From the human T2T-CHM13v2.0 reference genome, Homo sapiens: a DNA stretch of 64,000 nucleotides. A model generated the notes under the pieces. That model was not told where the DNA came from and searched no databases. It saw only the letters and a list, made by a program, of their open reading frames with translations. Location of the stretch: NCBI RefSeq assembly GCF_009914755.1, contig NC_060935.1. The stretch is one strand, 5' to 3'. Position numbers and translations under genes: made by a program. This document shows, in pieces, positions 46,178-50,534 of the stretch (position 1 is its first letter; each line of letters starts with the position of its first letter).

Positions 46178-46413
46178 AGTCCCATGCTGCAGACAGCTCA
46201 TGACAACTCTTAAGACACAATTGCTAAATTTTCAGAAATTCTGTTGGATGATTGTTAAAGGCAAACATTATTTGAAAGTAAAATATTTAATATATACTTA
46301 AATAAATTTTATTAAAAGTAAAGGCAACAAGTACGCAAGACACATCACTTACTAATTATTTTATTATATTTTGCTATCATCTATGTTATGTCTCTTAAAT
46401 CTGTAGGGCGGAA
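46178..46413 (+). mobile_element. MER63 (hAT-Blackjack) 5' part
   Basis: ttgctaaattttcagaaatt...catcacttactaattattttattatatttt...ctgtagggcggaa matches the recalled MER63B/C start. Confidence 0.7.
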
Positions 46414-46714
46414 TTTTTTTTTTTTTTTTTTTCTCAGACGGAGTCTGGCTCTGTCATCAGGCTGGAGTGCAACGGCGTGATCTCAGCTCACGGCAAGCTC
46501 CGCCTCCCAGGTTCACGCCATTCTCCTGCCTCAGCCTCCCCAGTAGCTGGGACTACAGGCACCCGCCACCTCGCCTGGCTAATTTTTTGTATTTTTAGTA
46601 GAGACGGGGTTTCACCGTGTTAGCCAGGATGGTCTCGATATCCTGACCTCGTGATCTGCCCGCCTTGGCCTCCCAAAGTGCTGGGATTACAGGCGTGAGC
46701 CACCGCACCCTGCC
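46414..46714 (-). mobile_element. Chimeric Alu: AluS-derived tail (46414-46491) fused to an AluY body
   Basis: Body has AluY diagnostics (gcaagctccgcc, ttcacgccattctcc, aggatggtctcgat); tail is the exact reverse complement of 48854-48933 apart from A-run length. Confidence 0.9.
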
Positions 46715-47963
46715 AGTACTTTATATATCATTTAATCCTCACAATAATCCTATGAGATGAGGATGTGGTATTGATCTCATTTTGACACCAATTAGAGGTA
46801 ACAAAAATAATGAGGGGGTAAAAGGCCACCTATTAAAATAACATATTCCTTGGTGAATTGCAATCCTTTTTTACCTATAGGAATGTCAATTTGACCCTAT
46901 CTTCATCTAGCACAGCAATTATCTTTAAATATTATCATCGATTTATTTTATGTAAAGTTTTATGTGAGAAATCAAATCACAGTAGAAGAGATTTTCCAGA
47001 TTATCAGGGGCAGCCTTAGGACCCCATATCATCTACTGATGTTTCTGAAAATGTTGCTTGTCACTTTTGGCTTTGCAAAATGAACAACTTTGCAACTCTG
47101 TTGCTATACAGTGCAAAGCATTTGATTTATAAGGTTGCCAGGATAGGAAATAAAACACTTTTTACAATTAACACTCTCATTAGAATATATTTCTTATTTT
47201 TCCAAGTTAATGGTGGAGATGCTGCTTAGGAGAATTAATGAAGAATTGTTCAGAGACAGATTATAGATATTTCATAATATCAGATTTGGTAAAGGATGTC
47301 AGCTGACCACCAAGGAAACAATACATTTAAGTACAGTTTAGCTTTACCTCTAGCATTTATATAATGTAGAGTGTTCTTTGCCCCATCTATCACTCTTTTA
47401 AGAAACTATGTTGTCAAACCACTGTATTACTTATTCCTCATTGCTACCTCGTGCACCAGGTTGCTATTTTACCCCTTGGAGATGAAAAACACAATCAATA
47501 AAGCCAAACTATTGAACCAGGTTTAGTTATAAATTGAGAGCTAGACTGCAGATCTTCTGAATTTGTGTAGTTCTTAATTTATTGAACTGAGCTGCTCTTT
47601 ACAACCATGTATTTATTAGGTTTTAACTTTTTCAAAATAATAAAAAATATTGAAAATAAAGGTAAAGAGAATTGCTCCTAAGCACACCACTGTGACTATT
47701 TTTCATGGTGCCTATCACTCCCTAGCCCTTGTTTACATGCATGTATATTTCACATGTATGTAATATAGATGCACCCAACAGTCACAGGCTTCAGGAGTAC
47801 TCTCGCTTTCTGTTCCATAATAGGAATAGTTCAAGTCCTCATCCTGCTCTGCTGCAGGAATGGCAGCCTCTTATTAGGCCCTCCTTCCCAAGAGTTTCTG
47901 TGTATCCCAAAGAAAGCTAAGTGTTTCACAAATTTCACTCTGCTACAGAAGTAGCCTAGACTT

Positions 47964-48629
47964 AGGGATGTGCTCATTCAATAGCTGGCTCTCTAGAAAG
48001 AAATGTGTAGTTTGAATCAGAGTAGGTGTGTGTATAATTAATTTTACTGATATAAAATATGTGTAACACAGAATTTACAATAATAATAAAATATACAATA
48101 TTTTCATTATAAATTCCATATAGCAACTGATTTTCACAGACTCACAGACTGCTTTCATTGATTTTTGCCAAACTTAGTGTTCATGGACAACACATGGTTG
48201 CAATTGACAACAAGTACTGTCCTGACAAAAATGCTGTTTGATATTTGGTTTACATTATAGAATACAGTAAAAGTGAAACAATGAAACCGTATGTCAGAAC
48301 CTCACTCATTCATCAAGAGTAAGAGCAACTTTTCACTGAATCAAATAATCGTTTTTGAAGACTAGAAGTTTATTCCTGTTTTGCGTTATTTATAATGTAA
48401 TAGACAGACATGACACATTTTAAGATTTAATCTGCATTATTAACATATTCCGCATCACTTTCTTAAATCTAGAAAATCAACAAAACAATAAATAGAGCCC
48501 TGTTTGGTAGCAGTTGCTGGTTTCAGTGATGTAAATACAACTGCCATGGCTGACTTCGAGCTATCACCATGACATCAAACATGGAGTTGGGAAGAGCTGT
48601 GCAGTAACATACTCTTATACAATATTTCT
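47964..48629 (-). mobile_element. MER63 3' part, in inverted orientation
   Basis: Reverse complement reads agaaatattgtataagagtatgttactgcacagctcttcccaactcc, the continuation of the MER63 consensus after ...tggaa; end motif near 47964-47995. Confidence 0.7.
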
Positions 48630-48984
48630 GGCCAGGCGTCGTGGCTCACGCCTGTAATCCCAGCACTTTGGGAGGCTGAGGTGGGCAAATCACCTGATGT
48701 CAGGCATTCGAGACCAGCCTGGCCAACATGGCAAAACCCCATCTCTACTATAAACACAAAAATTAGCTGGGTGTGGTGGCGGGTGCCTGTAATCCCAGCT
48801 ACTTGGGAGGCTGAGACAGGAGAATCACTTGAATCCGGGAGGCAGAGGTTGCAGTGAGCTGAGATCACGCCGTTGCACTCCAGCCTGATGACAGAGCCAG
48901 ACTCCGTCTGAGAAAAAAAAAAAAAAAAATTCCAGCCTGGTCAACAGAGTGAGACTCCGTCTCAAAAAAAAATAAATAAATAAA
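48630..48984 (+). mobile_element. Full AluS (48630-48929) followed by an orphan Alu 3' end plus tail (48931-48984)
   Basis: Two consecutive ccagcctg...actccgtct + A-tail units; the second is followed by atatataaagtact. Confidence 0.92.
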
Positions 48985-50534
48985 ATATATAAAGTACTTA
49001 GAATAGGCAAACAAGGCACACTATAGATATATTGGTATTATTATATTATATTATTATGCATGTTGGCTATGAAAATTTGATTTCAACTCTGTGCTTGCCT
49101 GGTGTAGTCCTATGGTACATGTTTGCTGTCTATCTCATAACTGACAGGGCATCTTCCTCAGTAATATTCACTTCTCTGATTTCTTTCTTGTAGTTTCATC
49201 CAGATTGCTCCAAGATTCTCTGGCCACCTCATAGAAATCAGAGACAGATAATTAATCTCACTAGAGGTGTAGAGGTAGCAGGTCTCCTAGGACTTTGTGT
49301 ACTTAGATTCTTATAAAGCCCAATAGATGGACTGTGATTGCTTCTTAGGCTCTTGTCTCATGGTCACCTAGAGAATGTTATTCCTGGTAGTTTGTTTCTT
49401 GTTTTGTTTTTTTTTTAATTCATTCTTCCCAATACTGAGTATATAATATTGTTTCTACATGGTATATTTTTAGAACATATGACTAATCTTTTACAATTAT
49501 GGAATTAAAGAATGGGAAGATTCTTTAAGTAGAAGCTCTCATTAAAAGTTGTATATAGCATTCCAAAACTTCCATCTTGAATCTCTCTCATCTCTCCACC
49601 ATTGATATTTGTGTAATGGAAACCTTTTGGTGTTGTTGATGTTTTTCTTCTGTCTGCCCTTCCCACCATAGATAAGAGTGGTCAAGTGACACAGGCTGGT
49701 CATACGCCCTTAATATAAAATGACTGAATTTTCTTCCAATCATTACTTCAAAAAAATAAAAATAAAAAACATCCTCCCATCTAAATATACACACACAATA
49801 ATAACCCTGTTTCTCCTGTCTTTATTCCCCTATCTTCTCTTCATGACACGAATTCTTCTCGACATTGCCTTGTCTATAACTCTGCTTACTGGGCTTTCCT
49901 GCCTTCTGCAGAGCACTGCTAAGCACATCCTAGTGGCATAAACCAGTGGAGACCTTTGCCCTGTCCCGCTCTGCAGCCCCAGACAAGCCCTGACCTTGGA
50001 GCCGGCGTACAGCAAGCCAGCAGCTTACACCAGATTTTCGCTTCCAAAGAGAAGGATCATTCTGTTTCCCCTGCCCAGAAAGCTCCTTTGAAAAGATATT
50101 TTCCAAAGGAGATTCTCAGAGCTCTATCTTACCTCCTTCAATATTTCATCCCATTTCAACATGATCATAAATGTCATTTCCCGGCCTCTCATTTTCTTAA
50201 TCTGCTACTTTACAGTATTGAGGCCTTTCTTCTGTTCCCATAAGAGATTCAGAGTAGACTATGCAAGCAAAATATGTCCTAGCTCTCAGGGCCATACACA
50301 TTTGCCCAAGGGCACTCTGGACCAGTGCTCCCTGTGCTAATCTTTCCTAAAAATCTTTCCCACCTACTAAAAATCCTTCCCACCTACTAAACTATAATTG
50401 GGTACTTTCCAGAAGTCAACCACTGGCTAAGTAATTGTGCTAAGTATACCATCTTGGGAGACCGTCAAAGTGATCTGATCACAGTTTTGGAATTTGCAGT
50501 TGAGGAATTGATGATTATAAAGAGAAGCAACTTT

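What the first reader, a model, noticed from the sequence alone, without database searches (positions are those of the whole stretch)
46410..48998. Hidden ~2.4-kb inversion between inverted Alus
Three lines of evidence. (1) The AluY TSD copies are in opposite orientation: agtactttatatat (46715-46728) is the reverse complement of atatataaagtact (48985-48998), and the AluY body (46492-46714, minus) is separated from its own 3' end (48931-48984, plus). (2) A MER63 ends at 46413 on plus and its direct continuation starts at 48629 on minus. (3) The MIR that hosted the AluY is split the same way (46715-46790 vs ~48990-49055). Flipping ~46492-48853 restores all three. Inference: this haplotype carries the derived orientation and may be lineage-specific or polymorphic.
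Basis: partly seen in the sequence, partly recalled or inferred. Interest (0 to 1): 0.85.

Follow-up and report, generated by a model that had tools for sequence, protein, structure and literature searches.

The report
Small complex inversion between two Alus
A roughly 2.4-kb piece of non-coding human DNA upstream of FAT3 was flipped between two oppositely oriented Alu repeats, with a small duplication and deletion at its ends; this is a real example of an already well-described kind of rearrangement.

Summary
A 14-nt target-site duplication lies beside the head of the left Alu (46715-46728). Its exact reverse complement lies beside an orphan Alu 3' end (48985-48998). These are the only 2 matches in the window, against 0.01 expected. 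An old interspersed repeat stops at 46413 and resumes at 48629 on the other strand. In 6 of 7 fetched paralogs, and 3 more judged by coordinates, the two halves are collinear (+37). The MIR split has only weak support.

It is not a plain Alu-Alu crossover. Left 46410-46491 is the perfect reverse complement of 48854-48933, apart from the homopolymer length (T19 versus A17), and includes 4 non-Alu bases. The left Alu is a chimera of a young body and an old tail. The right element is a whole old Alu followed by the last ~53 nt of the young one. About 25 nt of the young Alu are missing.

So this is an inversion with an ~80-nt inverted duplication and a ~25-nt deletion. One junction is Alu-homologous and in register; the other has 3 nt of microhomology. 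[quoted passage not shown]

Whether it is human-specific or polymorphic could not be tested. No outgroup or pangenome data were available, and supplements were closed. Interest is low to moderate.

The parts
46185..46413 (+). It ends with GGAA at 46410-46413, against the old Alu's poly-T.
   Evidence: 40 scored paralog matches in the own genome, covering query positions about 36-239 of 46150-46412; paralogs continue into the reverse complement of 48629 and below.
46410..46491 (.). Left copy of the perfect inverted duplication: GGAA, T19, and the 59-nt tail of the old Alu.
   Evidence: 46433-46491 is the exact reverse complement of 48854-48912. GGAA is the reverse complement of TTCC at 48930-48933. 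Only the homopolymer length differs (19 vs 17).
46414..46714 (-). Chimeric Alu. The tail and poly-T (46414-46491) come from the older Alu and the body (46492-46714) from the younger Alu.
   Evidence: the body is young-type at 19 of 21 diagnostic columns, and the tail is old-type at 4 of 5. The body differs from its nearest-paralog consensus at 8 of 223 sites and the tail at 10 of 60 (Fisher p 0.001); best paralogs of the body are 94-96% identical.
46486..46496 (.). Junction 1: an in-register Alu/Alu crossover interval of 11 nt shared by both parent types. It contains a private base at 46492.
   Evidence: the last young-type diagnostic column (245) corresponds to 46497 and the first old-type column (257) to 46485. 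At column 250 (46492), all 20 reference Alus and the right Alu have A, while the chimera has C in Alu orientation.
46715..46728 (+). Young Alu's 5' target-site duplication, now in reverse-complement orientation.
   Evidence: 2 matches in the window, 0.01 expected.
46715..48629 (.). Inverted non-Alu segment of 1915 nt. It carries a MIR-like piece at about 46724-46784 and the right half of the old repeat at about 48021-48629, the latter on the minus strand.
   Evidence: One search gives the size. MIR-like profile hit at 46724-46784, E 1.1e-10; paralogs of the old repeat cover query positions 1293-1901.
48630..48929 (+). Complete older Alu: body 48630-48853, tail 48854-48912 and A17 at 48913-48929.
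   Evidence: old-type at 21 of 21 body diagnostic columns; best paralogs are only 87-90% identical; two Metazoa_SRP-like hits, below the gathering score.
48854..48933 (.). Right copy of the perfect inverted duplication: tail, A17 and TTCC.
48930..48933 (.). Junction 2. TTCC, copied from the old Alu's flank, is joined to the young Alu's 3' end. TCC is shared with the young-type consensus at that point, giving 3 nt of microhomology.
   Evidence: in the alignment the fragment starts at the column where the young consensus reads CTCCAGCC. The flank's reverse complement reads TTCCGCCC.
48932..48984 (+). Orphan 3' end and A-rich tail of the younger Alu.
   Evidence: the fragment differs from the young consensus at 3 of 32 sites, from the old consensus at 5 of 32 and from the neighbouring old tail at 7 of 32. 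It is young-type at both diagnostic columns it covers.
48985..48998 (+). Young Alu's 3' target-site duplication (ATATATAAAGTACT).
48999..49026 (-). Probable continuation of the MIR-like element that hosted the young Alu (weak evidence).
   Evidence: only in the flipped arrangement does the profile alignment extend 27 nt past the junction. The gain is about 4 bits; 0 of 200 shuffles reach the score, though the best reaches 40.5 against 40.9.

Best explanation
An older Alu had inserted, in minus orientation, into an old interspersed repeat. A younger Alu had inserted about 1.9 kb to the right, in plus orientation, into a MIR-like element, making a 14-nt target-site duplication. Later, one rearrangement inverted the DNA between them.

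Both new junctions land only about 25 nt apart in the younger Alu. I infer a single lesion there. Junction 1 (46486-46496) joins the old Alu's tail to the young Alu's body in exact Alu register, through 6-11 nt of shared sequence. Junction 2 (48930-48933) joins the first 4 bases beyond the old Alu's poly-A to the young Alu's 3' end through 3 nt of microhomology (TCC).

The old Alu's tail, its poly-A and those 4 flank bases were copied at both ends. They now appear twice in opposite orientation, as 82 and 80 nt. About 25 nt of the young Alu were never copied.

The most economical mechanism is replication-based. The nascent strand switched from the old Alu's tail to the inverted young Alu, guided by homology. 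It copied back through the whole interval and out of the old Alu's far end, then switched back by microhomology. This is the FoSTeS/MMBIR type of event, and the product belongs to the dupINVdel class.

The inversion and the breakpoint anatomy are shown directly. The one-step template-switch route is inferred. My odds are about 0.93 that the inversion is real and about 0.55 for the one-step replicative route. No function is implied: the segment lies in unannotated intergenic DNA about 28.5 kb before the annotated FAT3 start.
For: - **TSD pair:** it occurs in inverted orientation only, with 2 matches against 0.01 expected.
- **Old repeat:** its halves are collinear on one strand in 6 of 7 fetched paralogs. 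Three further paralogs seen in both genome searches show the same geometry: C3:70.835 Mb, C6:108.85 Mb and C23:131.907 Mb. In each, the left half is on the minus strand and the interior half on the plus strand at adjacent lower coordinates.
- **Flipping test:** with the right half flipped, alignments cross the junction in 4 of 5 paralogs tested.
- **Identity pattern:** left against right Alu shows 0 differences in the 59-nt tail but 39 of 225 in the body (Fisher p 7e-5). The identity runs through the poly-A into 4 non-Alu bases.
- **Chimerism:** the left body is young-type at 19 of 21 diagnostic columns and its tail old-type at 4 of 5. The right body is old-type at 21 of 21.
- **Register:** the left-right alignment is ungapped across junction 1, so that junction is in Alu register.
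- **Literature:** 4 of 7 Alu-mediated polymorphic inversions had extra deletions or insertions at both breakpoints and were attributed to MMBIR or serial replication slippage (PMC9675761, passages). Inversions flanked by copy-number changes, including dupINVdel, are attributed to MMBIR/FoSTeS or to synchronous repair of several breaks (PMC5338099, passages).
Against: - No outgroup or second haplotype was available, so the un-inverted state is inferred from repeats and has not been observed.
- The final structure is equally produced by a two-step history: a templated patch of the young Alu, then a crossover inside the patch.
- The old-type reference Alus were chosen with a query that included the tail, so the 'tail is old-type' count is partly circular. 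The contrast against the young-type references, chosen with the body only, is not circular.
- Only 40 of 3681 and 40 of 5781 Alu candidates were scored.
- The older Alu's own target-site duplication is at most about 4 nt (GGAA/AGAA), so it adds nothing.
- The MIR evidence is weak.
- Only the first T of TTCC must come from the flank. The remaining TCC could also come from the young Alu.
Confidence: 0.6

Rival explanations
1. Two-step history. First, a break in the young Alu was repaired by copying about 80 nt from the inverted old Alu: its tail, poly-A and 4 flank bases. That replaced about 25 nt and caused no inversion. Later, an ordinary homologous crossover inside this now-identical tract inverted the interval.
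For: This route yields exactly the observed structure. The in-register junction 1 and the microhomology junction 2 are what synthesis-dependent repair from an ectopic Alu would leave. The perfect 59-nt tract plus homopolymer would be the best crossover substrate in the pair, whose bodies differ at 39 of 225 sites. Plain Alu-Alu recombination-mediated inversions are documented: 28 Alu events among 49 human-chimpanzee cases (PMC2603318, passages).
Against: It needs two rare events at one site. About 80 nt of identity is short for a crossover. No intermediate has been observed.
Confidence: 0.2
2. Breakage and end-joining with a staggered break. Two nicks about 82 nt apart at the old Alu's tail were filled in, so both ends carried the tail. 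A second break in the young Alu lost about 25 nt. The segment was then religated in reverse by non-homologous or microhomology end joining. From recall, this is the staggered-break model proposed for Drosophila inversions.
For: Inverted duplications at the two ends of an inversion are the signature of staggered breaks. Junction 2 has only 3 nt of microhomology. Synchronous repair of several breaks is named as an alternative for inversions flanked by copy-number changes (PMC5338099).
Against: Junction 1 lies exactly in Alu register, with an ungapped left-right alignment and a normal-length chimera. Homology-blind joining would hit that register only by luck, roughly 1 in a few hundred positions by my estimate.
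Confidence: 0.1
3. There was no inversion. The pattern would come from independent insertions, a chance match or an assembly error.
For: The un-inverted state was not observed in any genome here.
Against: The 14-nt match sits exactly at an Alu head and an Alu tail, and is expected 0.01 times in the window. The old repeat's halves meet to within a few bases when flipped. One Alu is a sharp chimera. An assembly error would not create an orphan Alu 3' end together with a perfect inverted duplication.
Confidence: 0.03

Closest known systems
Retrotransposon recombination-mediated inversion, Alu-RMI (Lee et al. 2008, PMC2603318; passages read)
   Same: An inverted Alu pair lies at the two breakpoints, one Alu is chimeric, and the target-site duplications no longer match in direct orientation. 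That mismatch is the same test the paper used to polarise events. The size is in range: human-specific Alu events there averaged 1934 bp, against a 2362-bp flipped block here.
   Different: That model is a reciprocal homologous exchange that leaves two chimeric Alus of normal length. Some reported cases include a deletion (3 of 14 human, 4 of 14 chimpanzee). Here only junction 1 is homologous, and the right element is a whole Alu plus an extra 3' fragment, with an 80-82-nt inverted duplication.
Transposable-element-mediated inversions with complex breakpoints (Balachandran et al. 2022, PMC9675761; passages read)
   Same: These are Alu-mediated inversions between diverged Alus in inverted orientation, with a median similarity of 81.7%. 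The bodies here differ at 39 of 225 sites. They carry extra small deletions or insertions at the breakpoints and are attributed to MMBIR or serial replication slippage. TEMR inversions there have a median length of 2454 bp.
   Different: The reported complexities were deletions of 38-251 bp and insertions of 14-23 bp. A templated ~80-nt inverted duplication reaching past the poly-A into the flank is not described in the passages I saw. That set is polymorphic in three people, whereas the status of this event is unknown.
Complex inversions flanked by copy-number changes, dupINVdel subclass (Collins et al. 2017, PMC5338099; passages read)
   Same: The topology matches: an inversion with a duplication at one breakpoint and a deletion at the other. 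The proposed origins also match: MMBIR/FoSTeS or synchronous repair of several breaks.
   Different: That catalogue concerns large variants seen with jumping libraries. Here the flanking changes are only about 80 nt and about 25 nt, and the inversion is 2.4 kb.

Membership tests
Alu recombination-mediated inversion (RRMI, simple NAHR) | Two elements of the same retrotransposon type, in opposite orientation, span the two breakpoints | tested here: met
   Minus-strand Alu at 46414-46714 and plus-strand Alu at 48630-48929.
Alu recombination-mediated inversion (RRMI, simple NAHR) | Target-site duplications no longer match in direct orientation, but match once the segment is flipped | tested here: met
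   For the young Alu, the 14-nt copies at 46715-46728 and 48985-48998 are reverse complements. The old Alu's duplication is too short to judge.
Alu recombination-mediated inversion (RRMI, simple NAHR) | Both breakpoint elements are reciprocal chimeras of normal length, with no sequence gained | tested here: not met
   The left Alu is a chimera. The right element, however, is a complete old Alu followed by TTCC and a 53-nt young 3' end. There is an 80-82-nt inverted duplication and about 25 nt are lost.
Alu recombination-mediated inversion (RRMI, simple NAHR) | The un-inverted orthologous state is present in an outgroup | not testable with these tools
Complex inversion flanked by copy-number changes (dupINVdel), replication-based | An inverted segment with a duplicated block at one breakpoint, present at both ends in opposite orientation | tested here: met
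   46410-46491 is the reverse complement of 48854-48933, apart from T19 vs A17.
Complex inversion flanked by copy-number changes (dupINVdel), replication-based | Loss of sequence at the other breakpoint | tested here: met
   Young-Alu positions between junction 1 and the start of the 3' fragment, about 25 nt by alignment to 20 reference Alus, are absent from the locus.
Complex inversion flanked by copy-number changes (dupINVdel), replication-based | Junctions show microhomology or short homology rather than long identical tracts | tested here: met
   Junction 1 has 6-11 nt of shared sequence. Junction 2 has TCC.
Complex inversion flanked by copy-number changes (dupINVdel), replication-based | All junctions arose in a single event | not testable with these tools
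   This needs haplotypes or outgroups that show or exclude intermediates.
Polymorphic human inversion (InvFEST type) | Both orientations segregate in humans | not testable with these tools
   Only one human assembly was searchable. The main texts of PMC6748972 and PMC13629690 contain none of 'chr11', '11q', 'FAT3' or 'Alu'. Their supplements were not seen.

The most novel reading that the evidence does not exclude
The event arose on the human lineage after the split from chimpanzee, or still segregates in people. It was made in one replication accident with two template switches, one guided by Alu homology and one by 3 nt of microhomology. It would then be a clean natural example of how inverted Alus seed dupINVdel rearrangements, located about 28.5 kb upstream of FAT3.
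Probability: 0.4. Interest if true: 0.35.

Novelty: new member of a known kind. Interest (0 to 1): 0.25.

Why it matters
The locus shows that repeat anatomy alone can reveal and polarise a small inversion in a single genome. The clues are an inverted target-site duplication, a split older repeat and a chimeric Alu. The breakpoints also record the repair route. One homologous junction combined with one microhomology junction, plus a templated inverted duplication, points to template switching rather than reciprocal crossover between Alus. That bears on how often 'Alu-mediated NAHR' inversions are really replication-based.

Biologically the segment is unannotated intergenic DNA. The hub's table shows no gene or RefSeq functional element in 46-49 kb, so no phenotypic effect is expected. 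If the inversion is polymorphic, it would mainly be a marker.

Tried and rejected
- **Ungapped comparison:** it was anchored one base off and with unequal homopolymers, so it gave noise. A gapped alignment replaced it.
- **MIR half by paralogs:**
  - A genome search with the reverse complement of 48985-49075 found only itself.
  - Six paralogs of 46715-46830 were not alignable upstream.
  - Pairwise tests on those six gave no gain for the flipped arrangement in 3, small gains within the range of the shuffled controls in 2, and a slightly lower score than the unflipped order in 1.
  - Only a profile built from 11 copies gave a small gain. One search printed nothing because of my own output filter.
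- **Dating:** the dating lines used a wrong start base and did not remove the homopolymer. One search corrects them.
- **Window Alus as a reference:** only about 9 were found, too few and too mixed, so I fetched 20 genomic Alus instead.
- **Literature on this locus:** nothing turned up.
  - Coordinate-phrase searches returned 0 papers. The hg38, hg19 and hg18 offsets I used come from recall and may be wrong.
  - 'FAT3 + inversion + Alu + breakpoint' returned 2 cancer or methods papers that looked unrelated from title and abstract start.
  - The main texts of two inversion catalogues contain none of 'chr11', '11q', 'FAT3' or 'Alu'.
- **Rfam hits:** mir-1268 at 46530-46581 and 48764-48815, and Metazoa_SRP, are all below gathering score. 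They are Alu sequence, not genes.
- **Rejected readings:** an old Alu retrotransposed into the young Alu is rejected because its 5' flank is unique sequence, not Alu. An intact left Alu is rejected because there is no matching duplication on its tail side.
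Full report
**What is in the sequence.**

The left Alu lies on the minus strand. Its T19 run is at 46414-46432 and its head is at 46714, followed at once by AGTACTTTATATAT (46715-46728).

The right Alu lies on the plus strand at 48630-48929 and ends in A17. It is followed by TTCC (48930-48933), the last ~53 nt of a second Alu with an A-rich tail (48932-48984), and then ATATATAAAGTACT (48985-48998).

The two 14-mers are exact reverse complements. They are the only 2 matches in the 64-kb window at up to one mismatch. 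Chance expectation is 0.01, and 0 of 100 shuffles gave 2. Rfam sees both Alus only as sub-threshold SRP-like and mir-1268-like matches, which is ordinary Alu sequence.

**The Alus are not what a plain crossover would leave.**

A gapped alignment of the left Alu against the reverse complement of the right one shows perfect identity from the flank bases GGAA/TTCC, through the homopolymer, to 46491/48854. Inward of that point identity drops sharply.
- 46433-46491 is the exact reverse complement of 48854-48912 (59 nt).
- GGAA at 46410-46413 is the reverse complement of TTCC at 48930-48933.
- The next bases outward differ, and the first inward base differs too.

To type the parts, I searched the window's own genome with the left body and with the right Alu.
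- Best paralogs of the left body are 94-96% identical.
- Best paralogs of the right Alu are 87-90% identical.
- Only 40 of 3681 and 40 of 5781 candidates were scored.

I fetched the 10 best of each, aligned them with the local elements and counted the columns where the two majority consensuses differ.

| Element | Result at diagnostic columns |
|---|---|
| Left body | young-type at 19 of 21, old-type at 1, neither at 1 |
| Right body | old-type at 21 of 21 |
| Left tail | old-type at 4 of 5, identical to the right tail at all 5 |
| Orphan 3' fragment | young-type at both columns it covers |

Further counts from the same alignment:
- The orphan fragment differs from the young consensus at 3 of 32 sites and from the adjacent old tail at 7 of 32.
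- The left element differs from the young consensus at 8 of 223 body sites but at 10 of 60 tail sites (Fisher p 0.001).
- Left against right shows 39 differences in 225 body sites and 0 in 59 tail sites (p 7e-5).

One caveat applies. The old-type references were picked with a query that included the tail. The young-type references were picked with the body only, so the first Fisher contrast is free of that circularity. By recall, the young type looks like AluY and the old type like AluS. No repeat library was available to confirm these names.

**The flanks confirm an inversion.**

The left flank belongs to an old interspersed repeat with 40 scored matches in the genome.

In 6 of 7 fetched paralogs, the reverse complement of 48300-48629 maps just downstream on the same strand. 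It is adjacent in four and about 345 bp away in two. L005 lacks it.

I then joined the left flank in silico to three alternatives and aligned each to the paralogs: the flipped right half, what follows the left Alu now, and the unflipped right half.

| Paralog | Flipped | Present order |
|---|---|---|
| L003 | 120.5 | 83 |
| L004 | 117.5 | 80.5 |
| L008 | 99 | 71 |
| L007 | 78.5 | 73.5 |
| L005 | no gain | no gain |

Only the flipped arrangement let alignments run through the junction. The unflipped join scored like the present order in all five paralogs (71-83).

A search with the interior 46729-48629 shows that the rest of this repeat occupies about 48021-48629. Three paralogs appear in both genome searches, at C3:70.835 Mb, C6:108.85 Mb and C23:131.907 Mb. 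In each, the two halves lie on opposite strands relative to the window queries and at adjacent coordinates. That is the geometry expected if the window copy is the inverted one.

The MIR claim is weaker.
- Paralog tests failed.
- A profile of 11 MIR-like copies hits 46724-46784 (E 1.1e-10).
- In the flipped arrangement only, the profile alignment extends 27 nt across the junction. It scores 40.9 bits against 36.7 and 37.6. None of 200 shuffles reach it, but the best reaches 40.5.

**Reconstruction (inference from the above).**

The ancestral order was:
1. the left half of the old repeat, ending in GGAA;
2. the old Alu on the minus strand (poly-T, tail, body, head);
3. the right half of the old repeat;
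4. unique DNA;
5. the MIR-like piece;
6. the 14-nt duplication, the young Alu on the plus strand, and the 14-nt duplication again;
7. the remaining MIR piece.

The derived order keeps everything up to 46491. It then runs backwards from young-Alu position ~222 through the interval and the whole old Alu, and out 4 bases into its flank. It then resumes in the young Alu about 25 nt further on.

This gives an inverted duplication of 82/80 nt, a loss of about 25 nt, and a flipped block of 2362 nt containing 1915 nt of non-Alu DNA.

Junction 1 lies in an 11-nt stretch (46486-46496) common to both Alu types and is in exact register. Inside it, 46492 carries a base that none of the 20 reference Alus nor the right Alu has. 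It may be an older private change or an error made during the event; roughly a one-in-three chance coincidence cannot be excluded. Junction 2 has TCC in common between the flank copy and the young-type consensus.

**Mechanism.**

A reciprocal homologous exchange cannot produce a whole Alu plus an extra 3' fragment, nor copy non-Alu flank bases. Three routes give the observed product.

1. One replication-based event with two template switches (FoSTeS/MMBIR). This is my preferred route, at about 0.55.
2. A templated repair patch of the young Alu followed by a crossover inside the patch, at about 0.2.
3. A staggered break with end-joining, at about 0.1. This is disfavoured because junction 1 is in register.

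The literature describes the same kinds of event.
- Alu recombination-mediated inversions are polarised by mismatched target-site duplications. There were 28 Alu events among 49, and the human-specific ones averaged 1934 bp (PMC2603318, passages).
- In 4 of 7 Alu-mediated polymorphic inversions, extra breakpoint deletions or insertions were ascribed to MMBIR or serial slippage (PMC9675761, passages).
- Inversions flanked by copy-number changes include a named dupINVdel subclass (PMC5338099, passages).

**Age and status.**

The inversion is younger than the young Alu, whose body differs at 3.6% of sites from the consensus of its nearest paralogs.

The two duplicate copies show 0 differences in 63 non-homopolymer bases, which include 3 CpGs. 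I assumed 1.2% divergence per 6.5 My and a 6-10-fold CpG rate; these values are recalled, not computed here. Under those assumptions:
- 1.1-1.4 differences are expected after 6.5 My;
- the probability of seeing none is 0.25-0.33;
- the 95% bound is 14-17 My;
- a flat prior over 0-25 My puts 0.68-0.76 on an origin after the human-chimpanzee split.

Gene conversion between the inverted copies would bias this estimate towards youth.

I had no ape assemblies, no other human haplotypes and no supplementary tables. Main-text searches found nothing on the locus. Lineage specificity and polymorphism therefore remain open, and the event may already be listed in tables I could not see.

**Verdict.**

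This is a real, derived inversion with well-defined complex breakpoints in unannotated intergenic DNA about 28.5 kb upstream of the annotated FAT3 start. It is a new example of a known kind. It is instructive for mechanism but not surprising.

Noticed in passing
window 46492: This is the first base inward of the perfect duplicate and lies inside the 11-nt crossover interval. It differs from all 20 reference Alus and from the right Alu at that column. It could be a synthesis error made at the template switch, or simply a private change of the young Alu.
   Followed up: partly
window 46410-46413 and 48625-48629: The older Alu seems to have at most a ~4-nt target-site duplication (GGAA versus AGAA). 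Paralogs of the host repeat show a single GGAAAT-like site there.
   Followed up: partly
window 1322-1458 and 7895-7982: Two further MIR-like copies were picked up by the profile built for the MIR test, with E 2.3e-31 and 4.3e-09. The first of them was part of the profile.
   Followed up: no
window 46530-46581 (-) and 48764-48815 (+): Rfam mir-1268 matches at 60.9 and 56.2 bits, against a gathering score of 83, lie inside the two Alus. This is Alu-derived similarity and not evidence of a microRNA gene.
   Followed up: no
window 49476-49551: A weak snoZ7 match on the plus strand (25.5 bits, E 0.24, gathering score 43). It is most likely chance.
   Followed up: no
L002 about 1684-2031 and L006 about 1634-1977: Two paralogs of the old repeat carry an insertion of about 345 bp, Alu-sized, near the position where the window copy carries its old Alu. 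The nature of the insertion was not checked.
   Followed up: no
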